From a phage, in the sequence record NC_105436.1: 51,253 nucleotides of DNA, one strand, 5' to 3'. Positions 4,765 to 44,485 of the stretch are shown here, one piece after another (within the stretch, counting starts at the first letter, position 1; every line of letters begins with the position of its first letter). The translations under genes were made by a program, and so were the position numbers. The notes under the pieces were generated by a model. It was given only the letters and a program-made list of their open reading frames with translations, was not told the origin of the DNA and made no database searches.

Positions 4765-6341
4765 CCCAGCAGTATTGGATTGACAAAAATAACACCATTA
4801 ATCACACAAACATAATTTCTTTCTTCCAGCATTGGCAGCAAGTGCCCTTCTATCCTCTTCATTACGCCAGCTTGACCAACGAAAGGTTTTACCTTTCTCG
4901 CTGATTCGTACAGTGCGCGAATATTCAGAATCCCTTTATTAGCCTTGCCGTGTCTAGTGATCAATTCAATCAATTTACCCATTTCAGCATCATCACCAGC
5001 ATAACCAGAAGCATTGGCGGCGCTAATGTATGTTTTGCTCAATTCCTGAAACATGATCAGCGCCTCTTGCATTGTTTCCACGTCGATCTCTTTCGACTTC
5101 TGCGGGTATCCGGCAGGATTAAACCAGTTGCGGATAACATGCAGTACGGAAGCAAGCCTGATCACCTGTTTATCCATTTTACCCAGCGCACCGCGTAACA
5201 TTGTATGAGAATACTTTCCGCCGTCTGCAAGATGCGGTTCCATATCCTGGCGAGCAATGTTGAGCACTCGCATAGCTGAACGGCTTATTTTCAGCGATAC
5301 ATTTGATTCGCTCATGATGTTATGCACCAACTGATAATATTGGGCCTTCAATTCAGAATCCACCGCCTCATAGGTAGAATCACCATTTTCATCAATGAAT
5401 GAGCGACGGCCTAAGAATGATTCCTCGCGGACCAACAAAAAGCGCTCACTCACACCGATACCGCGCGATCCAGCGTCCATGATTCCGCTTATCGTTTCAT
5501 CCTGGGCTATAACGCTCATACATCCAAGCGCGCGAAAACTCATGTTATTGTCAGCATTAGCACGGGCAATTGATACGTGACCATTATCCCACGCCTTAAG
5601 CACTAGCTCACTGTTAGTCTTCCTTTCGCTATTTGCATAGGTCAAGCCTAACAGGCTGTTAATACTTGTTGCTTCGTCAGATATTACGGCAAAGTTACCT
5701 TGCTTGTTGTTGATTTTCGCCAAGCCTTCTGGAGTTGTATCTGAAACAGGGAAAGTTATATCACACATCTTTTCCAGCTTCTCCTCCAGATCCTCTTTTT
5801 CCTGGTATAGAGATTCCATATCAGCGCCTGACCTTTCGCTTTTCATCTCCTTTGAAAGACCTGCCAACTTTGCCTGTATTTTCTTTCTTTCCTTGCGGCG
5901 TTGCTCGTTGATCTTCTCAACTTCCGCAATCATCGGAGCAATAGCCATGCTGTTGATCGCAGATTTACCAGTTGATGGCGGCTGGCTTGTAACGACGTAA
6001 AGCGCAGTCGGCTGATCTGTTCCGTGATAGTCAACCGTAAAGCGTCCAAGCATAGCGGCAGAAATGCAGCCGATAAAGTGCATGTAAGCCGATGATTCAG
6101 GGAATTGAACGGATCGCGCAATGCTGCGTGATAGCTTGCCGACAACATCAATATCATTACCAAGAGAAATTACGGGGTAGCGATCGTGACCGCTATTTAC
6201 ATCCTTCACGTCGCCCCAAAAGCTGGACGACTGGCGATAGCCGTTAGCCTGAATTGATACGCGAACTGGCGAAAGGTTCTGGCTTTCAGCCATAGCGATT
6301 ATTTGCTGTGGAGTTAATTTGTTCGTTTCTAATGAAAACAT
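4761..6341 (-). CDS. putative P-loop NTPase (replication-associated?)
   Basis: 526-aa ORF with Walker A-like PPSTGKS and Walker B-like FAVISDE; coiled-coil K/E-rich stretch; family assignment (DUF3987-like) is a guess from motif pattern. Confidence 0.4.
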   Translation of the reverse strand: MFSLETNKLTPQQIIAMAESQNLSPVRVSIQANGYRQSSSFWGDVKDVNSGHDRYPVISLGNDIDVVGKLSRSIARSVQFPESSAYMHFIGCISAAMLGRFTVDYHGTDQPTALYVVTSQPPSTGKSAINSMAIAPMIAEVEKINEQRRKERKKIQAKLAGLSKEMKSERSGADMESLYQEKEDLEEKLEKMCDITFPVSDTTPEGLAKINNKQGNFAVISDEATSINSLLGLTYANSERKTNSELVLKAWDNGHVSIARANADNNMSFRALGCMSVIAQDETISGIMDAGSRGIGVSERFLLVREESFLGRRSFIDENGDSTYEAVDSELKAQYYQLVHNIMSESNVSLKISRSAMRVLNIARQDMEPHLADGGKYSHTMLRGALGKMDKQVIRLASVLHVIRNWFNPAGYPQKSKEIDVETMQEALIMFQELSKTYISAANASGYAGDDAEMGKLIELITRHGKANKGILNIRALYESARKVKPFVGQAGVMKRIEGHLLPMLEERNYVCVINGVIFVNPILLG

Positions 6342-6371
6342 TCGTTAGCTTCTCCTTTGTGGGCCGTAAAT

Positions 6372-6416
6372 TTTAACGGCCCAATACTACCCCGTTTTGT
6401 CAAAAAGTGCTATTTG
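6372..6416 (-). promoter_or_regulatory. box cassette variant (TTGACA in place of TTGTTA)
   Basis: Minus strand AATAGCACTTTTTGACAAAAC, hairpin GGGCCGT/ACGGCCC with TAAAAT in the loop. Confidence 0.5.
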
Positions 6417-6631
6417 ATCCGCTCTATTGCAACCAGAAGTCGATCAGGCTGGCGGTCGCTGTAGCATTCTCCTGTAATCCCATCCTTAAACGTAAAGTAA
6501 AGCGCCTTATGATATGAAAAACCAATCAGCCAACCTACCGCCGTTTTTTTGATGGGCCTGACTATATCGCCAGGCTTGAAAGTCTTTGTGGTAGAATGCG
6601 TTACTTTGTAACGGTTTTCACTGTTTATCAC
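6410..6631 (-). CDS. hypothetical protein
   Basis: 73-aa ORF, overlapping stop/start with neighbour. Confidence 0.45.
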   Translation of the reverse strand: MINSENRYKVTHSTTKTFKPGDIVRPIKKTAVGWLIGFSYHKALYFTFKDGITGECYSDRQPDRLLVAIERIK

Positions 6632-11710: not shown

Positions 11711-12175
11711 ATGGAACAGAAAACCACTAAGGACTATTGCGATTGGCTTCGCGAGCTTGGTCGCCGCCTGGCTAGTGGCGATATTGAAGAGTATAAAATG
11801 TCACTAATTGACCTGGCCGGAATGTTAAGCGGTGACGACTGCTACAAGATCACGCGCAGTTCATCCTACAGCCGGACCATTATCAACCGCGTTCCAGAAG
11901 TAAGGGCCGCAGGTCGGGTAAGTATCAAGGTCGAGGAAACGGAAGATGATAAATTTTACGTTTTCCGCATGGTCCACGAATCGAAAAGGAAAATCATCAC
12001 ACCCGAAGAATTGCCAGCCATCAAGGCAAGGGCGATCAAAAAGTTTGCCGATCGCTTACTGGCAGCAATCCCGAACATCGTGGACCTGGAAGGGGATAAA
12101 CTGGCTGGAGCTTGTGAGGGCGTAAGCCGCTACCAGGATATGATCCGCGAAATCATCAAAGAGGAGGAGCAATAA
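11711..12175 (+). CDS. hypothetical protein (first gene downstream of consensus sigma70 promoter)
   Basis: Start at ATG 11711 with RBS GGAGG; sits 30 nt downstream of the TTGACA-17-TATAAT promoter. Confidence 0.55.
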   Translation: MEQKTTKDYCDWLRELGRRLASGDIEEYKMSLIDLAGMLSGDDCYKITRSSSYSRTIINRVPEVRAAGRVSIKVEETEDDKFYVFRMVHESKRKIITPEELPAIKARAIKKFADRLLAAIPNIVDLEGDKLAGACEGVSRYQDMIREIIKEEEQ

Positions 12176-12435
12176 TGAAAAAGGCATTAATCGGCGTTTT
12201 GGCGGCAATGGCACTCCTGACCGGATGCGAAAAGGCATCAGAATCAACGGTTGTCGTAGGCGTGGAGTCAGATTTCAAAGTCGGTCGCCTGTTCACTGTT
12301 GACGGATGCACAGCATACAGATTCTATGATAACGGTCGCGCGATCTATTACACCAATTGCAAAGGCGCAACGGATAGCACGTACAACAGCGGAAAGAACG
12401 TAATGCACCAGCAAGTCACAACAGATATTAAATAG
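12175..12435 (+). CDS. putative lipoprotein
   Basis: Signal peptide with lipobox LTGC; 86 aa, two further Cys in the mature part. Confidence 0.6.
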   Translation: MKKALIGVLAAMALLTGCEKASESTVVVGVESDFKVGRLFTVDGCTAYRFYDNGRAIYYTNCKGATDSTYNSGKNVMHQQVTTDIK

Positions 12436-35514: not shown

Positions 35515-36245
35515 TGATTAGTGCAAAAATTAAACTTGAAATAATGCAGCACGTTAAAGAGGAATACCCTAAAGAGGCTTGCGGCGTCATAACTCAAAAA
35601 TCACGGGTACAGAAATATCACCGCATAACCAACGTGCATGACGATCCAGAAAATCATTTTGAAATGGAAGCCGTAGAATACGCTGAATCGCTCGACAAAG
35701 GCGAATTAATCGCGGTGGTGCATTCCCATTGCGGGGATGGTGCTAGTACGATACCGAGCGCGCACGACTCATGTATGTGCGATGAAATGGGTGTGTCGTG
35801 GATTATAGTATCATGGCCCGAAGGTGATATGAGAATTGTCGAGCCGCAGGAGAGGCCGCTTATCGGTCGCCCGTGGTCGCTGGGGTCGTTCGATTGCTGG
35901 GGTCTTATCATGGCGTGGCATAAACAGCACGGAGTAGTATTGAATGACTTCCGAAAACCTTACGAGTGGTGGAAGTCAGAATATGGTGAAAATCTTTACC
36001 AGGATAATTATTTGAAAGAGGGATTTGTTGAAACTAACGAGCCTCCAAAACCTGGTGATATGGTGATTATGCAACTATCATCGCCAGTCTGGAATCATGC
36101 GGGGATTTATTTGGGTAACAACCAGCTATTACATCATGCGTTTGGAAAGCTATCTCGCATCGACTTGTATTCTGGATGGTATCAGGAGCACACTGTAAAA
36201 ATTTGCCGACATAAGGATCTGAAATATGACATTGAAAGTAATTAA
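35515..36245 (+). CDS. tail tip assembly protein (lambda gpK-like; JAB/MPN + NlpC/P60)
   Basis: JAMM motif HSHxxxxxxxSxxD (VVHSHCGDGASTIPSAHD); NlpC/P60-like Cys/His (GSFDCWGLIMAWH ... HAGIY). Confidence 0.75.
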
Positions 36246-36822
36246 GCTATCTGGTTCCCTGGGTCGTAGATTTGGCGTCTTTCACAAAATGGCGGTTGAC
36301 TCATACCCCGAAGCAATACGCGCGTTATCTTCCCAGGTTGAAGGGTTCAAGGACTACATGCAAAGCGAAGTAGGATCGCGAATGAAGTATGCTGTATTCG
36401 TTGATGGAAAAAACGTTGGTCAGCATGATGAAAAATCATGGAAGTGCGCGCGAGAGGTTCGAATAGTTCCTGTTCCAACTGGTTCTAAGTCCGGCGGCCT
36501 GTTCAATGTTGTTTTTGGTGCTGTAATTATGGCTACTGCGTTCATTACTGGCGGTGCAAGCCTGGCGGCTATGGGCGCTTTTGCATCTTCCGCATTTATG
36601 ATGGGTGGTGCTATCGCGCTTGGCGGTGTCATGCAAATGATCTCGCCGCAGCAGGGCGGAATGAAACTGCAAAGCCAATCAGCAGAAAATAAGCCTTCTT
36701 ACGCTTTCGGCGGCGCAGTAAATACCACGGCGGCAGGTTATCCGGTTCCTTTGCCATATGGATATAGGACAGTAGGCGGCGCGATCTGGTCGGCTGGCAG
36801 CTACGCAGAAGATAAAGCATAA
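36226..36822 (+). CDS. tail assembly protein (lambda gpI-like)
   Basis: 198 aa with Gly/Ala-rich hydrophobic C-terminal half; overlaps the gpK-like gene end. Confidence 0.6.
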   Translation: MTLKVIKLSGSLGRRFGVFHKMAVDSYPEAIRALSSQVEGFKDYMQSEVGSRMKYAVFVDGKNVGQHDEKSWKCAREVRIVPVPTGSKSGGLFNVVFGAVIMATAFITGGASLAAMGAFASSAFMMGGAIALGGVMQMISPQQGGMKLQSQSAENKPSYAFGGAVNTTAAGYPVPLPYGYRTVGGAIWSAGSYAEDKA

Positions 36823-36828
36823 AAAAAT

Positions 36829-36851
36829 ACCCGCCTTGCGCGGGTTTTTTT
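36829..36851 (+). terminator. terminator-like hairpin + T-run
   Basis: ACCCGC/GCGGGT stem + T7, followed by TTTATAATG upstream of the gpJ-like gene. Confidence 0.55.
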
Positions 36852-36900
36852 GTGCCTTTATAATGTGCAAACCAAGAAACAGCACAAAAGGTTAAAAGTC

Positions 36901-39900
36901 ATGGCTAAATATATGATAAGTGGCAGTAAAGGTGGCGGTCAAAAGCCCTACGTGCCAAAAGAGATGGAAGATAACCTAATCTCGATAAATAAGATTAAAG
37001 TTTTGCTTGCTGTATCTGACGGCGAGTGCGATCCAAATTTCACGTTGCGCGATCTTTATCTTGATGATGTTCCGGTTATTGCCAGCGATGGCACTGTTAA
37101 CTACGAGGGAGTTACGGCTGAATATCGACCAGGTACGCAGACGCAAGATTACATCCAGGGGTTTACTGACACATCAAGCGAGGTGACAGTTTCGCGAGAT
37201 ATTACAGCAGACAATCCTTATGTTATATCTGTGACAAACAAAAATCTTTCTGCAATCAGAATCAAGATTCTGATGCCAGTTGGCATGAAGCAGGAGGATA
37301 ACGGCGATCTTGTTGGCGTAAGGGTTCAATATGCCGTAGATATGGCTGTTGATGGCGGTTCTTATAACGAGGTTATGAGAGATGTAATTGACGGCAAGAC
37401 GAGATCAGGATATGACCGCAGCAGAAGGATTGATCTTCCTAAGTTTGATGAGCGCGTTTTAATCAGGGTCAAGCGACTGACTCCAGACAGCACATCTTCA
37501 AAGGTGACTGATAAAATCAAACTGCAAAGTTACGCTGAGGTTGTGGATGCAAAATTCCGTTATCCTCTGACTGGCCTTGTATTCGTAGAATTTGACAGCG
37601 AATTGTTTCCTACGCAAATCCCTAACATTTCTATAAAAAAGAAATGGAAGATTATTAATGTGCCAAGCAACTATGATCCAATATCAAGAGAATATCACGG
37701 GTCATGGGATGGGACTTTTAAAAAAGCGTGGTCAAATAATCCTGCTTGGGTTCTTTATGATCTGGTAACGAATCAGCGTTATGGGCTTGACCAGCGAGAG
37801 TTAGGAATACAGATCGACAAGTGGAGCTTATACGAGGCAGGCGTTTACTGCGATCAGAAAGTTCCAGACGGTAAGGGCGGTACAGAGCCTCGCTACCTAT
37901 GCGATGTGGTGATTCAGAATCAAGTTGAGGCTTATCAGCTAATCCGTGACATTTGCTCAATCTTTCGCGGAATGAGCTTTTGGAATGGTGAGAGCTTATC
38001 AATCGTGATTGATAAGCCGCGCGATCCATCATACGTGTTTACTAATGAAAACGTCATCAACGGTGATTTTCAGTACACAACCGCAAGCGAAAAAAGCATG
38101 TACACGCAATGTAATGTGACGTTTGACGACGAACAAAACATGTATCAACAGGACGTCGAGGGGGTTTTTGATACTGAGGCTGCATTGCGATTTGGATACA
38201 ATCCAACAAGCATTACAGCGATCGGGTGTACACGCAGGAGCGAAGCGAATCGTCGCGGTCGGTGGGTTTTGAAAACAAACCTTAGAAGCACTACTGTAAA
38301 CTTTGCTACCGGACTAGAGGGGATGATTCCATCCATAGGTGATGTGATTGCTATCGCTGATAATTTTCAGAGCAGCAATCTAACGTTAAATCTTTCGGGC
38401 CGAGTAATGGAAGTTTCAGGCTTGCAAGTTTTCGTTCCGTTTAAAGTTGATGCGCGTCCTGGTGATTTTATTATCATCAATAAGCCGGACGGCAAGCCAG
38501 TTAAGCGAACGATCTCAAAGGTGAGCGCAGACGGAAAAACCATTGAGTTAAATATTGGCTTTGGTTTTGATGTTAAGCCTGATACTGTTTTTGCGATTGA
38601 CCGTACTGACCTTGCGTTGCAGCAATACGTTGTGACAACTATCAGCAAGGGTGATGACGAAAACGAGTTTACCTATTCAATCACGGCTGTAGAGTACGAT
38701 CCGAACAAATACGACGAGATTGATTATGGAGTAAACATTGATGACAGGCCAACTTCAATTGTTCAGCCTGACGTGATGGCAGCGCCTGAGAACGTGCAGA
38801 TCTCTTCTTATTCTCGCGTCGTGCAGGGTGTAAGCGTTGAAACTATGGTTGTGTCGTGGGAAAAAGTTCCTTATGCGTCACTGTATGAAATGCAATGGCG
38901 AAAAGGTGATGGCAACTGGCTGAATACGCCGCAGACAGCTAACAAAGAGATAGAGGTAGAAGGGATTTACTCGGGGAACTATCAAGTAAGGGTTAGATCT
39001 GTTTCTGCAAGTGGGAACACCTCCCCGTGGTCAAAGATTGCAACCGCCACACTGACAGGTAAAGTTGGCGAGCCAGGGGCGCCGATTAATCTTACAGCTT
39101 CTGATAATGAAGTTTTTGGCATTCGTGTCAAATGGGGTATGCCGGAAGGATCAGGCGATACGGCTTACATTGAGCTTCACCAATCGCCAGACGGAACGGT
39201 TGAAAACTCAAGCCTGCTTACGCTGATTCCATATCCTCAATATGAGTATTGGCATAGCACGTTACCAGCGGGTCAAGTTGTATGGTATAGAATCCGTAGC
39301 GTTGACAGGATCGGCAACGTTTCCGGCTGGACTGACTTTGTTCGTGGCATGGCGTCAGATGATGTTGAATCTGTTTTAGGCGACATTCTGGACAAGATTT
39401 TTGATACCGAAGCGGGTCAAGAAATCAAAGAGAACGCCATAGACAGTGCCAACAAAATCAAAGACCAAGCGCAATCAATCATCCAGAACGCATTAGCAAA
39501 CGATGCTGATGTGAAGTGGACGCGAGTACAAAACGGAAAGCGTAAGGCTGAATATGGTCATGCTCTTGAGCTTATCGCCAACGAAACTGAGGCGCGCGTA
39601 ACTCAAATCGAAGAGTTAAGGGCGTCAATTGATGAAGATATAGTTTCAAGTATCAAAACCGTTCAGGAAGCGATTGCCAACGAATCAGAGACGCGAGCTA
39701 CTCAAGTTCAGCAGCTTGATTCTAAATTTACGAAGGAAATAGACGGCGTAAAACGAGATACGGCTGCAAGTATTGGTGAGGTAAGGCAAACCATTACCAA
39801 TGAATCAGAAGCGCGCGCTCAGGCCGTTCAGCAGCTTGACGCTAAGTTCACGAAAGAGATAAACGACCTTGACGGAGTTATCAAAACAGAAGTCGAGGCT

Positions 39901-40479
39901 AACATCTCAGAAGTGAAACAGGCGATCGCCAATGAGACAGAGGCAAGGGTTCAGGCTGACCAGTCTTTAACAGCTAAATTCGGAGACGTTGAATCAGCAC
40001 TAGCAGAAAAACTTGATTCGTGGGCTAACGTTGATTCGGTTGGCGCTAAGTACGCTATGAAATTGGGCCTTACTTACAATGGGCAGAAGTACAGCGCAGG
40101 AATGGTAATGCAGCTATCGCAATCGTCGCAGGGGTTGATCTCACAAATCCTTTTCGATGCTAACCGATTTGCAATTATGACCAGTTCGTCAGGTGGCGTT
40201 TACACATTGCCGTTTGTAGTAGAAAATAACCAGGTTTTTATCAACAGTTTGTTGGTGAAAAACGGGTCCATTACTAACGCAATGATTGGCAACGTTATTC
40301 AGTCAAATAACTTTGTTCAGAATCAGCAAGGATGGAGGCTTGATAAAAATGGTAACTTTGAGAACTACGGAACTAGAGCGGGAGAAGGAGCTACAAAATT
40401 CACTAACGAAGGCTTAAAGGTGAAAGATGCAAATGGACGATTGAGAGTTGAGATAGGGAGAATAACCGGAAGTTGGTAA
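36901..40479 (+). CDS. central tail fibre / host specificity protein (lambda gpJ-like)
   Basis: About 1192 aa, start at ATG 36901; position after K/I; C-terminal coiled-coil repeats. Confidence 0.8.
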   Translation: MAKYMISGSKGGGQKPYVPKEMEDNLISINKIKVLLAVSDGECDPNFTLRDLYLDDVPVIASDGTVNYEGVTAEYRPGTQTQDYIQGFTDTSSEVTVSRDITADNPYVISVTNKNLSAIRIKILMPVGMKQEDNGDLVGVRVQYAVDMAVDGGSYNEVMRDVIDGKTRSGYDRSRRIDLPKFDERVLIRVKRLTPDSTSSKVTDKIKLQSYAEVVDAKFRYPLTGLVFVEFDSELFPTQIPNISIKKKWKIINVPSNYDPISREYHGSWDGTFKKAWSNNPAWVLYDLVTNQRYGLDQRELGIQIDKWSLYEAGVYCDQKVPDGKGGTEPRYLCDVVIQNQVEAYQLIRDICSIFRGMSFWNGESLSIVIDKPRDPSYVFTNENVINGDFQYTTASEKSMYTQCNVTFDDEQNMYQQDVEGVFDTEAALRFGYNPTSITAIGCTRRSEANRRGRWVLKTNLRSTTVNFATGLEGMIPSIGDVIAIADNFQSSNLTLNLSGRVMEVSGLQVFVPFKVDARPGDFIIINKPDGKPVKRTISKVSADGKTIELNIGFGFDVKPDTVFAIDRTDLALQQYVVTTISKGDDENEFTYSITAVEYDPNKYDEIDYGVNIDDRPTSIVQPDVMAAPENVQISSYSRVVQGVSVETMVVSWEKVPYASLYEMQWRKGDGNWLNTPQTANKEIEVEGIYSGNYQVRVRSVSASGNTSPWSKIATATLTGKVGEPGAPINLTASDNEVFGIRVKWGMPEGSGDTAYIELHQSPDGTVENSSLLTLIPYPQYEYWHSTLPAGQVVWYRIRSVDRIGNVSGWTDFVRGMASDDVESVLGDILDKIFDTEAGQEIKENAIDSANKIKDQAQSIIQNALANDADVKWTRVQNGKRKAEYGHALELIANETEARVTQIEELRASIDEDIVSSIKTVQEAIANESETRATQVQQLDSKFTKEIDGVKRDTAASIGEVRQTITNESEARAQAVQQLDAKFTKEINDLDGVIKTEVEANISEVKQAIANETEARVQADQSLTAKFGDVESALAEKLDSWANVDSVGAKYAMKLGLTYNGQKYSAGMVMQLSQSSQGLISQILFDANRFAIMTSSSGGVYTLPFVVENNQVFINSLLVKNGSITNAMIGNVIQSNNFVQNQQGWRLDKNGNFENYGTRAGEGATKFTNEGLKVKDANGRLRVEIGRITGSW

Positions 40480-40480
40480 A

Positions 40481-40505
40481 AAAAAGGGGGCATAGCCCCC
40501 TTTAA
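40481..40505. terminator. bidirectional terminator candidate
   Basis: A-run, GGGGGC/GCCCCC stem, T-run; between convergent gpJ-like gene and minus-strand genes. Confidence 0.7.
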
Positions 40506-40507
40506 TT

Positions 40508-41122
40508 TTAATCATAGTGTGATGAATTTATAACCAAAACAGATGAAGCCGTGTAAATACCAACAGGACCAGAAGTTTGTGCAACCTGCCTAGATAAAGA
40601 ATATACCCCGTTGCCATACGCGGCAGCTTGAGACTCAAATATCATGAATCCACCTAAAGACGGATTACGCACAGAGTTTAAAGCTGTTAGTGATGGCATG
40701 ATGGCGCAAGGGTATCCCAAGTTAACGTCAAAAGTGATCCCGCTTACAGATACAAGTTTTGCATCTAAAGGCTTCATCTTTCCATGATAAACCATCTCAC
40801 CATTAGCATTATAAAAAGCTATTCCGTGACTACCAGGAGGAGTAACAATATTGCTAAAAGCATAAACAAATACCTCACCTTGATTGTCGGACTTTTCTAT
40901 CTTTATTGCGTGCTTACCACCATTATTAAATTGAGTAAATGCTATGTATGATTTTGATGTTAACCTTACAAAAAAGAAGCACGGTCTATTTATTGGTATA
41001 GAAGTATTAAAAACGGTTCCTGTTTTTGCTGATATTTTACCTTTATCTATAAGGTTAACAGGAGTGAAATCTGGACTTAACCACAATGATCCGTCTGGTT
41101 TTTTTATGCTCATCCCGTACAT
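40508..41122 (-). CDS. hypothetical protein (tail/receptor-binding locus)
   Basis: Start at ATG 41122 with RBS GGGGG; convergent with the gpJ-like gene; no motif recognised. Confidence 0.45.
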   Translation of the reverse strand: MYGMSIKKPDGSLWLSPDFTPVNLIDKGKISAKTGTVFNTSIPINRPCFFFVRLTSKSYIAFTQFNNGGKHAIKIEKSDNQGEVFVYAFSNIVTPPGSHGIAFYNANGEMVYHGKMKPLDAKLVSVSGITFDVNLGYPCAIMPSLTALNSVRNPSLGGFMIFESQAAAYGNGVYSLSRQVAQTSGPVGIYTASSVLVINSSHYD

Positions 41123-41124
41123 TA

Positions 41125-41403
41125 TTACCCCCAAAAAGTATATATATATCTTGAGTCAGATCCAGAAAGTCCGCTCCATGTAACGGTATCACCACTTACA
41201 CCTAAACTTGGAGCGCCTGGATCGCCTCCGCGCCACGAACTCATTCCAACATATATTGCTTTCAACGACTTACCTGGCGGCCTGTTTGAGTAGGTCTTAC
41301 TGCCAGATGATTGAGTAAATTTATCCAAGAAAAAAACTGGAGTTAAAAGGCCAGTAACATTTCTACCTTGCTCATCATATATTGCATACCCATATTCAGC
41401 CAT
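41125..41403 (-). CDS. hypothetical protein
   Basis: 92-aa ORF, Gly/Ser-rich. Confidence 0.4.
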   Translation of the reverse strand: MAEYGYAIYDEQGRNVTGLLTPVFFLDKFTQSSGSKTYSNRPPGKSLKAIYVGMSSWRGGDPGAPSLGVSGDTVTWSGLSGSDSRYIYTFWG

Positions 41404-41677
41404 TTTTGCACCTCAAATCAATGAATTTTCTTTCATCTTGCCAACGGTTGATAAATTTAACTTCTTTATTGTCAACGCTCAACCTGTATTGCTTTTGGCT
41501 GAATCTGTTTTCGCGGACCGCATTAATTTTAACTTCATGGAATCCGTTAACAGGGAATGTTTTAACGTTAAATTTTGCCGTGCAATCGATCTCCTTGAAG
41601 TTGCCAGTAGGCGAAGAAGAACATCCGGTCAGAGCGGCTACGGTGGCTATAACTGCGATTAATTTTTTCATCTTCAA
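41396..41677 (-). CDS. putative lipoprotein (candidate superinfection-exclusion factor)
   Basis: Signal peptide with lipobox LTGC; mature part with 3 Cys; RBS AAGGAG; box cassette upstream. Confidence 0.55.
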   Translation of the reverse strand: MKMKKLIAVIATVAALTGCSSSPTGNFKEIDCTAKFNVKTFPVNGFHEVKINAVRENRFSQKQYRLSVDNKEVKFINRWQDERKFIDLRCKNG

Positions 41678-41702
41678 TACTCCTTAGTTGTTGTTGACTG
41701 TA

Positions 41703-41746
41703 ACTATACACGATCCGGCAAGCCGAGTTTAGCAAAAAGTGCTACT
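41703..41746 (-). promoter_or_regulatory. box cassette variant (minus strand)
   Basis: Minus strand AGTAGCACTTTTTGCTAAAC + 21-nt spacer + TATAGT; upstream of the lipoprotein gene. Confidence 0.5.
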
Positions 41747-42114
41747 TGTTATTTTTTGTTTTCCGGTGTTATCTGATTTAAGACGGCGTAAATTTAGCGC
41801 AAATTTTAGCCAACATAAGAACAATAAATAATCAATAAAATAGGTATATACATATAAAATCAATAGTTTATTTATTTATGTATGTGTATTTGTTTTTTCT
41901 TGTTATCTGTGTTTCTTGTGGTTTTGGTTGTTTGTGGTGATTTTTCTTTCTGAGTATCTGTATGTGCCATCATTCATGTGTATGTATATAATCCGGCGTA
42001 TCTGAGAGAACAAGGGAACAAGAAAAATAACATATATTAATCATTAACTTACGCGTCAAATTTGTTTTATTGCCATCTTAGAACGTTTAGAAAACAGAAA
42101 AAACAAAACAACTA

Positions 42115-42142
42115 TTGACTAAATCAACCAAATGGCTACAAT
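42115..42142 (+). promoter_or_regulatory. near-consensus sigma70-type promoter (TTGACT-16-TACAAT)
   Basis: TTGACT at 42115-42120, 16-bp spacer, TACAAT at 42137-42142; upstream of the exonuclease/Erf/SSB operon; shares ACCAAAT.GC spacer core with the 11652 promoter. Confidence 0.65.
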
Positions 42143-42172
42143 GCACACACAAAGCAACGAGGAGCATTAAAG

Positions 42173-43228
42173 ATGAGTGATTTTAACGCCTACACTAGCG
42201 AAGAAATGAGCAACGAGCTTTATCATGATCCTAACGCATGGACGGCTGAATATGTCAGCGGTTCCAGCCTGGCGGAGATTTACAGCACTTGCCCGGCGTA
42301 CTGGAAGTACAAGCCTCGCCAGGAAACCAAAGCACTTGTTTTCGGTACGCAGTCGCATACCAATTTTGAAAGCAAGGAGTTATTCGAAAAAACATATCGC
42401 CGCGCACCGTCGCAGGATGATTTTAAAGATCTGATCACAAGTCAAACGGCGTTGGCCTCAAAGCTGAAATCTTTTGGCCTGAAAGGTACAACGGGTAAGC
42501 AATACCCCGAATTGCTGGAAATGCTGTACAAGTGCGGTGAGGATCTCAATGTATGGTGGCTTATCGAAATGATGGCAGAATGCCAGGCCGCAGCGGACGG
42601 CGTGCAGTTAATCGACGCGAAAGATTATGATGCCTGTGTAGCGATGCGGCGCGTACTTGAGGCAATACCTGAGCATAATGCTTGCATGAATAGCCCAACC
42701 GCGCAGCGTGAAATGTCAATATTCGGGATCATCAATGGCGTAAAAGTTAAAGTGCGCCTTGATCACGTTGACGTAAACAAGGATGTAAAGGCCACAATCA
42801 TTAACGGTTACGACGAAAAAGGCCGACCGATTTATGAAGAAGTCATCTATCCAGAAGCTGTGATTATCACTGACTATAAAACAACGGTTAGCGCAAATCC
42901 GGTTGACTTCCAGCGCCTGGCTTACAATCACGGCTATTATCTCAAAATGGCTTTGCAGCATGATTTATTTAAAAAGGCGTATCCAGACGAGGAAAGGCCA
43001 GTAATTGTGAGATTGCTTGCTCAAGAGAAGAAAGAGCCTTACTTGCCGCTCGCATTCCGCATGAACATTGAGCAATTGAAGATCGGTCGCATCCAGTACA
43101 TGAGCGTGATCAACAAGTTCAACGTTTGCCAACAGTTAGATGAATGGCCTTCGTATGCAAACGGGCAACCAGAAATTGATCTTGATACTCCTGATTGGGT
43201 ACGCGCTCAATTCAGGCAGTATCTATGA
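42173..43228 (+). CDS. PD-(D/E)XK recombination exonuclease
   Basis: D ... (D/E)xK arrangement (RLDHVDV ... ITDYKTT); first gene of the recombination module. Confidence 0.6.
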   Translation: MSDFNAYTSEEMSNELYHDPNAWTAEYVSGSSLAEIYSTCPAYWKYKPRQETKALVFGTQSHTNFESKELFEKTYRRAPSQDDFKDLITSQTALASKLKSFGLKGTTGKQYPELLEMLYKCGEDLNVWWLIEMMAECQAAADGVQLIDAKDYDACVAMRRVLEAIPEHNACMNSPTAQREMSIFGIINGVKVKVRLDHVDVNKDVKATIINGYDEKGRPIYEEVIYPEAVIITDYKTTVSANPVDFQRLAYNHGYYLKMALQHDLFKKAYPDEERPVIVRLLAQEKKEPYLPLAFRMNIEQLKIGRIQYMSVINKFNVCQQLDEWPSYANGQPEIDLDTPDWVRAQFRQYL

Positions 43229-43289
43229 CAAACCAAATAAATAGATAAACTTTTATAATGGTTGGTGATATAATTCGCCAACCAGATAA

Positions 43290-43958
<669 letters not shown>

Positions 43959-43963
43959 TAAAC

Positions 43964-43983
43964 GGGGCGCTTGCGCCCCTTTT
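43964..43983 (+). terminator. terminator-like hairpin
   Basis: GGGGCGC/GCGCCCC stem + TTTT between Erf-like and SSB genes. Confidence 0.45.
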
Positions 43984-44001
43984 GTCATAGGAGAAAACAA
44001 A

Positions 44002-44454
44002 ATGCACGTTATTACAGGTGAGATCCGAAAAGAGCCAAAAGTAAAGCAAATGCCTAACGGCAGCACGCTATATGTTGTTGAGCTTTCCGAGCGATACAAA
44101 GACCGAGAAGGAAATTGGCAGTATACAAACTATGTGTTTTTCTTTAACGCGAAAACAGACGGCCTGAATGGTTGGTATGCTGAGGCTTTCCAAGTAGGAA
44201 AGGTTATTTCTGTTTCCTGCGATACCTTGCGAGTTGAAACGCGAGAATACAACGGAAAGATTTACAGCACCGTGCAGCCTGGCGGATTTGCAAACCTGCT
44301 ATTTAGCCAGCGCGGAGAAAGCCAGCAACAATATCAGCAGCGAACGCAAGGAGGCTGGGGGCAACCACAACAGCAACAGCAACAAAATACTCAACAGCAG
44401 CCACAGCAAAGCAATCAGCCGCCGATTGACTTTGACGATGATATACCATTCTAA
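44002..44454 (+). CDS. ssb: single-stranded DNA-binding protein
   Basis: OB-fold-sized N-terminal domain, Gln/Gly-rich linker, acidic C-terminal tail ending DFDDDIPF. Confidence 0.8.
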   Translation: MHVITGEIRKEPKVKQMPNGSTLYVVELSERYKDREGNWQYTNYVFFFNAKTDGLNGWYAEAFQVGKVISVSCDTLRVETREYNGKIYSTVQPGGFANLLFSQRGESQQQYQQRTQGGWGQPQQQQQQNTQQQPQQSNQPPIDFDDDIPF

Positions 44455-44456
44455 TA

Positions 44457-44485
44457 ACAAAAAGCCCCGCATATGCGGGGCATTT
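44457..44485. terminator. bidirectional terminator candidate
   Basis: A-run, GCCCCGC/GCGGGGC stem, T-run; between convergent SSB and fibre genes. Confidence 0.7.

What the first reader, a model, noticed from the sequence alone, without database searches (positions are those of the whole stretch)
40508..41677. Convergent three-gene locus after the gpJ-like gene ending in a lipoprotein: candidate receptor-binding and superinfection-exclusion module
Three minus-strand genes (208, 92 and 93 aa) lie between the gpJ-like gene and the right-hand regulatory island. The last is a lipobox lipoprotein with its own box cassette. In T5-like and T1-like phages a small lipoprotein next to receptor-binding genes blocks the receptor from superinfection. 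A second small lipoprotein (12175-12435) in the early region could be another exclusion factor.
Basis: partly seen in the sequence, partly recalled or inferred. Interest (0 to 1): 0.5.

Follow-up and report, generated by a model that had tools for sequence, protein, structure and literature searches.

The report
Phage receptor-binding and exclusion gene cassette
The three genes are a known, swappable cassette of T1-like coliphages: two tail-tip proteins that recognise the host receptor (very probably the vitamin B12 transporter BtuB) and a small lipoprotein that most likely blocks that receptor in infected cells. It is a correct call but an ordinary feature.

Summary
Three tightly packed minus-strand genes lie between gpJ and the divergent early region: a lipoprotein (41396-41671, 91 aa), a small protein (41125-41403, 92 aa) and a large protein (40508-41122, 204 aa). 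A bidirectional terminator shared with gpJ ends them.

The window is a Warwickvirus (Drexlerviridae). This locus is 100% identical to phage JLBYU07.

It is the published "RBP locus / cor cassette" downstream of gpJ. FritzSarasin (cassette proteins 86-94% identical) and KarlJaspers (56-73%) both use BtuB. PeterMerian has a 94%-identical gpJ but a different cassette and uses FhuA.

The lipoprotein is at best a distant Cor relative. Database "Cor" hits come from its signal peptide, but the mature part aligns Cys-to-Cys with Cor (P 7.5e-4).

The exchanged block is 40491-41621, with one boundary inside the signal-peptide codons.

The second lipoprotein (12175-12435) does not co-vary with the cassette.

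Verdict: interpretation supported, feature already known, low interest.

The parts
36901..40479 (+). gpJ-like central tail fibre / tail tip protein (1192 aa from the annotated ATG). It ends in the conserved tip domain ...LRVEIGRITGSW and has no extra receptor-binding domain.
   Evidence: Pfam FNIII-A_GpJ, Phage-tail_3 and Phage_Tail_Tip. The C-terminal 200 aa align with T1, ES18 and Oekolampad J up to the last residue. It is 94.4% identical to J of the FhuA-dependent PeterMerian.
40483..40503 (.). Bidirectional intrinsic terminator shared by gpJ and the convergent cassette operon.
   Evidence: 9-bp stem with 6 GC pairs and T-runs on both strands.
40508..41122 (-). Large subunit (204 aa, 22.0 kDa): the probable receptor-binding protein proper, an all-beta 'hand-like' fold.
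41125..41403 (-). Small subunit (92 aa, 9.9 kDa): probable adaptor or second subunit of the tail-tip receptor-binding complex.
   Evidence: phrog_557, E 6.6e-21. No TM segment. Detected in vB_EcoS-95 virions as _0085 with 55% coverage. Naturally fused to the N-terminus of the large protein in P0073 and P0116. In T1, ES18 and 933W its gene lies between the tail-fibre gene and the large gene.
41396..41671 (-). Outer-membrane lipoprotein (91-aa precursor; mature form about 8.9 kDa with two further invariant Cys). Probable superinfection-exclusion factor and a distant Cor relative. First gene of the operon.
40491..41621 (.). The exchangeable block: large gene, small gene and the mature part of the lipoprotein gene. 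Flanking homology runs through the gpJ stop and terminator on one side and starts inside the signal-peptide codons on the other.
   Evidence: blastn against FhuA-type PeterMerian: homology 36000-40490 and 41622-44462, none between. The same boundaries appear in the independent Hanrivervirus pair Bas06 vs Bas07.
41672..42172 (.). Divergent intergenic region between the cassette operon and the exoVIII/Erf/SSB operon. The cassette's promoter is presumed to lie here but was not identified.
   Evidence: The only sigma-70-like matches are on the + strand, at 41964-41992 and 42115-42142. Imperfect 47-nt inverted repeat 41747-41793 / 41986-42032. The region is conserved with FhuA-type relatives.

Best explanation
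This is the BtuB-type allele of the modular host-recognition and superinfection-exclusion cassette that small siphoviruses carry just downstream of gpJ.

One minus-strand operon encodes, in order, three products:
1. A lipoprotein. It would be exported, lipidated at Cys17 and sorted to the inner leaflet of the outer membrane. There it most likely binds the periplasmic side of the receptor and makes it unusable for incoming phage. This would parallel Llp on FhuA and Rtp45 on LptDE.
2. A 92-aa soluble protein.
3. A 204-aa soluble all-beta protein.

The last two are built into the virion at the conserved C-terminal tip of the gpJ trimer. The small protein would act as adaptor or second subunit. 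The large one would be the receptor-binding protein that engages the extracellular face of BtuB.

The mature lipoprotein, small protein and large protein are exchanged between phages as one 1.1-kb block, and this switches receptor specificity.

Shown here or in cited work: gene structure, homology, fold match, virion presence, correlation of cassette with receptor, and block boundaries.

Inferred: BtuB binding by this particular protein, the docking geometry on gpJ, and the exclusion activity of the lipoprotein and its site of action.
For: Identity of the locus. It is 100% identical to Warwickvirus JLBYU07 and 99% to vB_EcoS-95. The literature describes the RBP locus with a cognate exclusion protein downstream of gpJ, the three-gene cor cassette, and receptor-specific RBP families at this locus.

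Receptor.
- FritzSarasin/Bas04 and KarlJaspers/Bas06 are experimentally BtuB-dependent. Their cassette proteins are 86/92/94% and 63/73/56% identical to the window's, in the order large/small/lipoprotein.
- PeterMerian/Bas05 has a 94.4%-identical J but only 24% (large) and 33% (small) identity in the two tail proteins, and its lipoprotein is similar only over residues 1-34. It uses FhuA.
- The JLBYU warwickviruses are not FhuA-dependent.

RBP role of the large protein.
- High-confidence model.

Virion location. Mass spectrometry of vB_EcoS-95 virions detected the 22.0- and 10.0-kDa products along with J, but not the lipoprotein. Locus tags and near-identity were verified.

The two proteins work together.
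- Natural small+large fusions occupy the same genomic slot.
- The pair sits in the late tail operon of T1 and ES18, and after the tail fibre gene in the podovirus 933W, which has no lipoprotein.

J has no receptor domain of its own. Its C-terminus is conserved across BtuB, FhuA and LptD phages.

Lipoprotein.
- Lipobox and invariant Cys residues.
- Cys-to-Cys alignment with Cor.
- Same operon layout as the Oekolampad SE-lipoprotein/RBP pair. The homologous Rtp45 was solved on the periplasmic side of LptDE.
Against: - No experiment exists on this phage. The JLBYU authors list its receptor as unknown.
- The virion mass-spectrometry signal is thin: 2 and 3 peptides.
- Sequence-level links to the solved RBP are weak (hhalign P 0.018 and 0.009). 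No PDB sequence hit was found.
- The lipoprotein fails curated Cor thresholds.
- The lipoprotein's PHROG Cor hit vanishes when the signal peptide is removed.
- No minus-strand promoter was found, so timing of expression is unknown.
- Co-transcription of virion proteins with an exclusion factor from a region shared with early recombination genes is unusual compared with T1.
Confidence: 0.8

Rival explanations
1. The 92-aa and 204-aa proteins are host-membrane proteins that assist the lipoprotein in superinfection exclusion. This follows their database names ('outer membrane protein', 'membrane associated protein') and was suggested for the T1 cor cassette.
For: - PHROG names and categories.
- The KanT1 paper assumes a Sie-related role because of predicted membrane localisation and linkage to cor.
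- In this window they are co-transcribed with the lipoprotein.
Against: - Neither protein has a signal peptide or a hydrophobic segment.
- Both were found in virions, while the lipoprotein was not.
- The large protein has the fold of a solved RBP.
- In T1, ES18 and PeterMerian the pair sits in the tail operon on the opposite strand to cor.
- Stx podoviruses carry the pair with no lipoprotein.
Confidence: 0.05
2. gpJ itself binds the receptor, as in lambda. The two small proteins are assembly chaperones or accessory tip proteins that do not determine specificity.
For: - Lewis et al. treat gpJ as the RBP of these phages.
- The 2026 preprint finds receptor-associated k-mers in the gpJ C-terminal tip.
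- TolC- and LamB-type relatives use gpJ extensions.
Against: - J is 94.4% identical between a BtuB-type and a FhuA-type phage of the same genus, while the cassette is replaced.
- J ends at the same conserved residue in BtuB, FhuA and LptD phages.
- The Oekolampad protein with the same fold binds its receptor alone in vitro.
- Chaperones are not normally retained in virions.
Confidence: 0.08
3. The lipoprotein is not an exclusion factor. It might be a lysis, envelope or RBP-maturation factor, or a generic moron that merely happens to sit there.
For: - It fails curated Cor thresholds.
- The mature domain has no family hit.
- Fold matches are generic small beta-barrels.
- No experiment exists for any BtuB-type Drexlerviridae lipoprotein in the papers read.
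Against: - Its mature part is exchanged together with the RBP genes, with identical boundaries in two genera. That is the expected pattern for a receptor-cognate partner.
- It occupies the slot of Cor in FhuA cassettes and of Rtp45/SE-Oeko in LptD cassettes. Rtp45 was shown structurally to bind the receptor.
- The Cys pattern and profile similarity match Cor.
Confidence: 0.2

Closest known systems
BtuB-type 'bona fide RBP locus' of Drexlerviridae: FritzSarasin/Bas04 bas04_0023-0025 and KarlJaspers/Bas06 bas06_0024-0026 (Maffei et al. 2021, PMC8594841; bioRxiv 10.64898/2026.04.02.716166)
   Same: Same three genes, same order and strand, and same position between gpJ and exoVIII. Proteins are 86-94% (Bas04) and 56-73% (Bas06) identical. 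Both phages depend on BtuB.
   Different: Nothing of substance. This phage's own receptor has not been reported.
T1 / phi80 / N15 / HK022 / ES18 'cor cassette' (FhuA type): Cor plus two upstream genes
   Same: The small and large proteins are homologous: phrog_557 and phrog_425, with 24-33% identity to PeterMerian's. A lipoprotein with the same Cys pattern is present. The position after gpJ is the same.
   Different: There the pair is on the gpJ strand in the tail operon and cor stands alone on the other strand. Here all three are one convergent operon. The receptor is FhuA rather than BtuB. The mature lipoprotein is too diverged to pass Cor models.
Oekolampad RBP (bas18_0025; PDB 9RPT/9RQI) with SE lipoprotein (bas18_0026), and Rtp44/Rtp45 (PDB 9RPS), LptD type (Dunbar et al. 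2025, PMC12685063)
   Different: That RBP is a single 321-aa chain of another PHROG family (phrog_1265). Sequence similarity is marginal. The SE lipoprotein is unrelated in sequence (phrog_4281). The receptor is LptDE.
T5 pb5 / Llp on FhuA (PDB 8A8C, 8A60), and the BF23 receptor-blocking lipoprotein on BtuB (the latter from my own knowledge: Mondigler et al. 2006)
   Different: pb5 is a large unrelated protein. No significant sequence relation to Llp was found. tblastn of the lipoprotein hit no T5-like phage.
'Ig-like' 11-kDa plus 'hand-like' 21-kDa proteins downstream of the tail spike in Dhillonvirus JLBYU60, Stx phage tv24B and Pseudomonas Littlefixvirus (Matusiak et al. 2025, PMC12309495)
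   Same: The same two protein families, proposed there as undetected RBPs docking on the spike tip. Relatives of the window's large protein in Stx phages are 46-47% identical.
   Different: Those are FhuA or BamA systems, studied by modelling only. The Stx phages have no adjacent lipoprotein.

Membership tests
RBP locus of small siphoviruses downstream of gpJ, BtuB allele (Maffei et al. 2021) | Lies immediately downstream of the gpJ homologue, before the recombination genes | tested here: met
   gpJ stop at 40479, cassette at 40508-41671, exoVIII from 42173.
RBP locus of small siphoviruses downstream of gpJ, BtuB allele (Maffei et al. 2021) | Putative RBP more than 30% identical at full coverage to that of phages with experimentally shown BtuB dependence (criterion of the 2026 preprint) | tested here: met
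   Large protein 86% identical to Bas04 and 63% to Bas06 over 204/204 residues. Receptors from S5 Table. Criterion quoted.
RBP locus of small siphoviruses downstream of gpJ, BtuB allele (Maffei et al. 2021) | The allele, not the phage backbone, correlates with the receptor | tested here: met
   Same-genus PeterMerian (FhuA) has J 94% identical with the cassette replaced. A second pair, Bas06/Bas07, shows the same.
RBP locus of small siphoviruses downstream of gpJ, BtuB allele (Maffei et al. 2021) | This phage needs BtuB to infect | not testable with these tools
   Published only: it is not FhuA-dependent and its receptor is listed as unknown.
phrog_425 'hand-like' receptor-binding protein | Profile match over the full length | tested here: met
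   E 1.5e-50, residues 4-208 against profile positions 2-224 of 224.
phrog_425 'hand-like' receptor-binding protein | Fold shared with an experimentally verified RBP | tested here: met
phrog_425 'hand-like' receptor-binding protein | Virion component without an export signal | tested here: met
   No TM or signal peptide. Published virion mass spectrometry of a protein differing by one residue.
phrog_425 'hand-like' receptor-binding protein | Binds the receptor directly | not testable with these tools
   Only AF3 models for Bas06 are reported in the preprint.
phrog_557 small tail-tip protein | Profile match, and gene directly upstream of the large gene | tested here: met
   E 6.6e-21. Adjacent in 63 of 76 loci that carry the large gene.
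Cor / Llp superinfection-exclusion lipoproteins | Signal peptide with lipobox and no Asp at +2 (outer-membrane sorting) | tested here: met
   MKKLIAVIATVAALTG|CSSS. Weak Pfam LPAM_1 hit.
Cor / Llp superinfection-exclusion lipoproteins | Passes the curated Cor sequence model | tested here: not met
   NCBIfam NF047972 scores 18.6 bits against a cut-off of 31. The PHROG 1119 hit disappears when the signal peptide is removed. tblastn similarity to T1 cor covers residues 1-34 only.
Cor / Llp superinfection-exclusion lipoproteins | Mature domain homologous to Cor, with two conserved Cys | tested here: inconclusive
   hhalign P 7.5e-4 over 50 columns from Cys to Cys, 32% identity. The score of 21.9 exceeds all 200 column shuffles, whose maximum was 19.6. 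C30 and C88 are invariant.
Cor / Llp superinfection-exclusion lipoproteins | Llp-like fold | tested here: inconclusive
Cor / Llp superinfection-exclusion lipoproteins | Expression protects cells against phages using the cognate receptor | not testable with these tools
   Needs the plating experiment.

The most novel reading that the evidence does not exclude
Three linked readings are not excluded.

1. The BtuB, FhuA and LptD cassettes are treated in the 2026 preprint as unrelated protein families. They may instead be one ancient system. The receptor-binding unit would be built from repeats of one roughly 100-residue beta module that opens with a YGxxIxxxxG...P motif. That unit can be encoded as small plus large chains or as a single fused chain.

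2. The lipoprotein would be a Cor derivative re-targeted from FhuA to BtuB.

3. Cassettes would be swapped by recombination between two fixed anchors: the gpJ 3' end with its terminator, and the lipoprotein signal-peptide codons.
Probability: 0.4. Interest if true: 0.4.

Novelty: already known. Interest (0 to 1): 0.22.

Why it matters
This cassette decides which outer-membrane protein the phage uses. It probably also protects infected cells and progeny from wasteful re-adsorption. It therefore matters for predicting host range, for phage-resistance routes (loss of BtuB) and for engineering receptor specificity by swapping cassettes. All of this has been worked out for close relatives.

The window adds only modest detail:
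- a receptor prediction (BtuB) for a phage group whose authors listed the receptor as unknown;
- fold-level evidence linking the BtuB-type RBP to the solved LptD-type RBP;
- natural fused forms of the two subunits;
- precise exchange boundaries that could guide engineering.

Tried and rejected
Searches that found nothing useful:
- Sequence searches of all three proteins and of two family profiles against PDB gave no meaningful hit.
- Pfam and NCBIfam gave nothing for the two tail proteins.
- Foldseek of the lipoprotein model against PDB gave nothing with E below 0.001.

Ideas tested and not supported:
- A BLASTP link between the N-termini of the small and large proteins was not significant. 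Profile comparison later gave P 2e-4 to 6e-6 for a short shared motif. I report this only as a lead.
- The Oekolampad RBP as a fused small+large protein: hhalign of the small family against it gave E 0.66.
- The roughly 320-aa relatives (P0071) as the LptD RBP family: no PDB hit. They are fusions within phrog_425/557 instead.

Technical failures:
- The search for related loci with the 62-sequence alignment failed for lack of a conserved stretch. The 16-sequence alignment worked.
- The promoter scan found no minus-strand site upstream of the operon. A manual reading found only 8/12 candidates.
- The motif TGTTATCTG is mildly enriched in the window (22 matches against 11 expected), but it does not define a clear 'box cassette' at this gene.

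Records and papers not held:
- The JLBYU26 record, whose listed length equals the window's, is not in the phage collection. The window's identity with it is unverified.
- The T1 proteome paper and the Rtp genome paper are not held.
Full report
WHAT IS THERE

Reading the sequence and the GenBank annotations of identical phages refines two starts. The large protein starts at ATG 41122 (204 aa) behind a GGGGG Shine-Dalgarno. The lipoprotein starts at ATG 41671 (91 aa) behind AAGGAG.

The lipoprotein stop overlaps the small-gene start by 8 nt, and the small-gene stop is 2 nt from the large-gene start. The three genes therefore form one operon transcribed lipoprotein, then small, then large. It ends at a hairpin (40483-40503) that scores as a terminator on both strands and also serves the convergent gpJ.

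No convincing sigma-70 promoter was found on the minus strand in the 500-bp divergent region shared with the exoVIII/Erf/SSB operon. That region holds an imperfect 47-nt inverted repeat.

WHERE IT COMES FROM

The region is 100% identical to Escherichia phage JLBYU07 and 99% to vB_EcoS-95, both Warwickvirus (Drexlerviridae, Tempevirinae). The window length equals that listed for JLBYU26, but that record is not in the collection.

WHAT THE LITERATURE ALREADY SAYS

- Maffei et al. [quoted passage not shown] Each allele matches one terminal receptor.
- Their S5 Table gives BtuB for FritzSarasin (Bas04, Warwickvirus) and KarlJaspers (Bas06), and FhuA for PeterMerian (Bas05, Warwickvirus).
- A 2026 paper on phage KanT1 describes the three-gene 'cor cassette' in T1, HK022, N15, ES18 and phi80. 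It notes a BtuB-using Tempevirinae variant.
- A 2026 preprint confirms the locus-receptor correlation on 255 phages, with AF3 models for a BtuB-type RBP.
- Dunbar et al. 2025 solved the Oekolampad RBP on the outside of LptDE and the lipoprotein Rtp45 on its periplasmic side.
- Matusiak et al. 2025 proposed from modelling that a small 'Ig-like' protein and a 'hand-like' 21-kDa protein encoded after the tail spike are undetected RBPs in Dhillonvirus, Stx phages and a Pseudomonas phage.

RECEPTOR ASSIGNMENT

I compared the window's proteins with those of phages of known receptor.

| Phage (receptor) | J | Large | Small | Lipoprotein | ExoVIII |
|---|---|---|---|---|---|
| Bas04 (BtuB) | 88% | 86% | 92% | 94% | 99.7% |
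| Bas06 (BtuB, other genus) | 90% | 63% | 73% | 56% | 81% |
| Bas05 (FhuA, same genus) | 94.4% | 24% | 33% | residues 1-34 only | 78% |

The cassette, not gpJ, goes with the receptor. gpJ also ends at the same conserved residues (...LRVxIGRITGSW) in BtuB, FhuA and LptD phages, with no added domain. The JLBYU authors report that their warwickviruses are not FhuA-dependent and list the receptor as unknown. BtuB is the clear prediction.

THE LARGE PROTEIN

It belongs to phrog_425 (E 1.5e-50). It has no signal peptide or hydrophobic segment, so the label 'membrane associated protein' is unfounded.

A profile search of 1.8 billion representatives found 128 relatives. With a 62-sequence alignment AlphaFold2 gave an all-beta model at pLDDT 93.3 and pTM 0.88.

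Sequence-level support for that link is marginal: hhalign P 0.018 and 0.009, with a shared FxN..P.P..GI..N..G.v....kP motif. So the BtuB-type and LptD-type RBPs, called unrelated in the preprint, share a fold. The FhuA type (ES18 gp31, T1 orf31) is detectably homologous in sequence.

THE SMALL PROTEIN

It belongs to phrog_557 (E 6.6e-21) and is likewise soluble.

Some relatives of the large protein are about 310-320 aa. P0073 and P0116 carry a phrog_557 domain at residues 1-80 and a phrog_425 domain from about residue 99. The P0073 gene starts at the stop of a gpJ-type gene. It is followed by an opposite-strand Cor-like lipoprotein and then a tail fibre gene with its assembly protein. These natural fusions argue that the two chains act as one unit.

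Profile comparisons suggest a short shared N-terminal motif, YGxxIxxxxG...P, in the small protein and in both halves of the large one (P 2e-4, 2.4e-5 and 5.9e-6). This is a lead, not a result.

VIRION LOCATION

Topka et al. 2019 identified 16 proteins in vB_EcoS-95 virions by mass spectrometry. All were structural or of unknown function. They included _0083 (gpJ), _0084 (22.0 kDa, 2 peptides) and _0085 (10.0 kDa, 3 peptides, 55% coverage), but not _0086.

I verified that _84, _85 and _86 are the 204-aa, 92-aa and lipoprotein genes. They differ from the window's by 1, 1 and 0 residues.

This fits the gene context elsewhere. In T1, ES18 and PeterMerian the pair follows gpJ on the same strand, with cor alone on the other strand. 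In the podovirus 933W the pair follows a tail fibre gene with no lipoprotein. Forty-seven of 76 loci carrying the large gene had the small gene with no lipoprotein or J-sized ORF detected nearby; these are mostly Stx-phage relatives. The window's layout, with all three genes convergent to gpJ, is that of Bas04, Bas06 and Oekolampad.

THE LIPOPROTEIN

It has a canonical signal peptide and lipobox, with Ser at +2. Cys17, Cys30 and Cys88 are invariant in 13 homologues.

The database 'Cor' label is misleading as it stands:
- The PHROG 1119 hit (E 6.4e-8) vanishes when the signal peptide is removed, whereas mature ES18 Cor scores 5.5e-24.
- tblastn similarity to T1 cor covers residues 1-34 only.
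- NCBIfam Cor scores 18.6 bits against a cut-off of 31.

However, the mature family does align with eight mature Cor sequences. The alignment runs from the second Cys (the C-T-A motif) to the last Cys, over 50 columns at 32% identity and P 7.5e-4. The score of 21.9 exceeds the maximum of 19.6 in 200 column shuffles.

I conclude it is probably a diverged Cor relative. Its exclusion function is inferred from position, co-exchange and analogy, not shown.

THE EXCHANGE UNIT

blastn against PeterMerian shows homology through the gpJ stop and terminator (to 40490). There is none from 40491 to 41621. Homology resumes at 41622, which lies inside the signal-peptide codons of the lipoprotein gene.

The Hanrivervirus pair Bas06 (BtuB) and Bas07 (FhuA) breaks at the equivalent points. 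The swapped unit is therefore the mature lipoprotein plus both tail-tip proteins. This explains the signal-peptide-only 'Cor' hits and is what a receptor-cognate exclusion partner would predict.

THE SECOND LIPOPROTEIN

The ORF at 12175-12435 is real and has a lipobox. It has weak similarity to DUF4884, with a score of 24.7 bits that falls below the cut-off of 30. It belongs to phrog_6360, of unknown function.

Relatives occur in phages of Serratia, Pseudomonas and Xanthomonas, and in the LptD phage Rtp. The window's allele is 98.8% identical to FritzSarasin's. It is only 48-50% identical to those of JLBYU10 and BEK12A, whose RBP cassettes are 98-99% identical to the window's. It does not travel with the receptor module, so a receptor-specific exclusion role is unlikely.

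VERDICT

The feature is a documented cassette in sequenced, published phages. Novelty is 'already known' and interest is low.

The small additions here are the fold link to the solved LptD RBP, the fused forms, the Cys-to-Cys Cor alignment and the exact exchange boundaries.

Noticed in passing
P0073 / L159:276-1226; P0116 / L160-L162: Natural single-chain fusions of the small (phrog_557) and large (phrog_425) proteins. In L159 (P0073) the fusion sits directly after a gpJ-type gene and next to an opposite-strand Cor-like lipoprotein.
   Followed up: yes
window 41622-41671 (signal-peptide codons of the lipoprotein gene): Homology with FhuA-type relatives resumes inside the signal-peptide codons. 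The signal peptide and upstream region appear to act as a fixed recombination anchor for cassette exchange. The same boundary is seen in a second genus (L163 vs L166).
   Followed up: yes
window 41125-41403 and 40508-41122: A short motif, YGxxIxxxxG...P, recurs at the N-terminus of the small protein, at the N-terminus of the large protein and at residue ~99 of the large protein (hhalign P 2e-4 to 6e-6). This hints at a repeated ~100-residue module.
   Followed up: partly
L003 (933W) 5768-6618; L010-L064: Stx-converting podoviruses carry the same small/large pair after a tail fibre gene, with the large protein 46-47% identical to the window's. They have no lipoprotein, and lom lies downstream. 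This is closer to the window's protein than the FhuA-type siphovirus proteins are.
   Followed up: partly
window 12175-12435 (+): A second lipoprotein with weak, sub-threshold DUF4884 similarity. Its alleles (about 99% vs about 49% identity) are distributed independently of the RBP cassette among otherwise close warwickviruses. Function unknown.
   Followed up: partly
window 41747-41793 and 41986-42032: An imperfect 47-nt inverted repeat (70% complementary) in the divergent intergenic region. The right arm starts at the -10 element (41987-41992) of the best sigma-70-like site on the + strand. It may be a shared regulatory element of the two divergent operons.
   Followed up: no
window 41729-41863 (-) and neighbouring small ORFs: JLBYU07 annotates two tiny ORFs (44 and 32 aa) in the intergenic region. 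The 44-aa one has no PHROG hit and lies in AT-rich regulatory DNA, so it is probably not a gene.
   Followed up: partly
phage records MG0656xx ('Campylobacter phage' C4, E6, A139 etc.): Records labelled as Campylobacter jejuni phages carry this E. coli-type cassette (large protein 62% identical, lipoprotein 53%) and have T1-like genome sizes. They look like mislabelled or contaminant coliphages.
   Followed up: no
window 39701-39967 (inside gpJ): A stretch of the gpJ coiled-coil repeat region lacks DNA homology with FritzSarasin, which has a 51-aa shorter J. The equivalent stretch also differs between Bas06 and Bas07. It is a second variable spot in gpJ, unrelated to receptor type.
   Followed up: no
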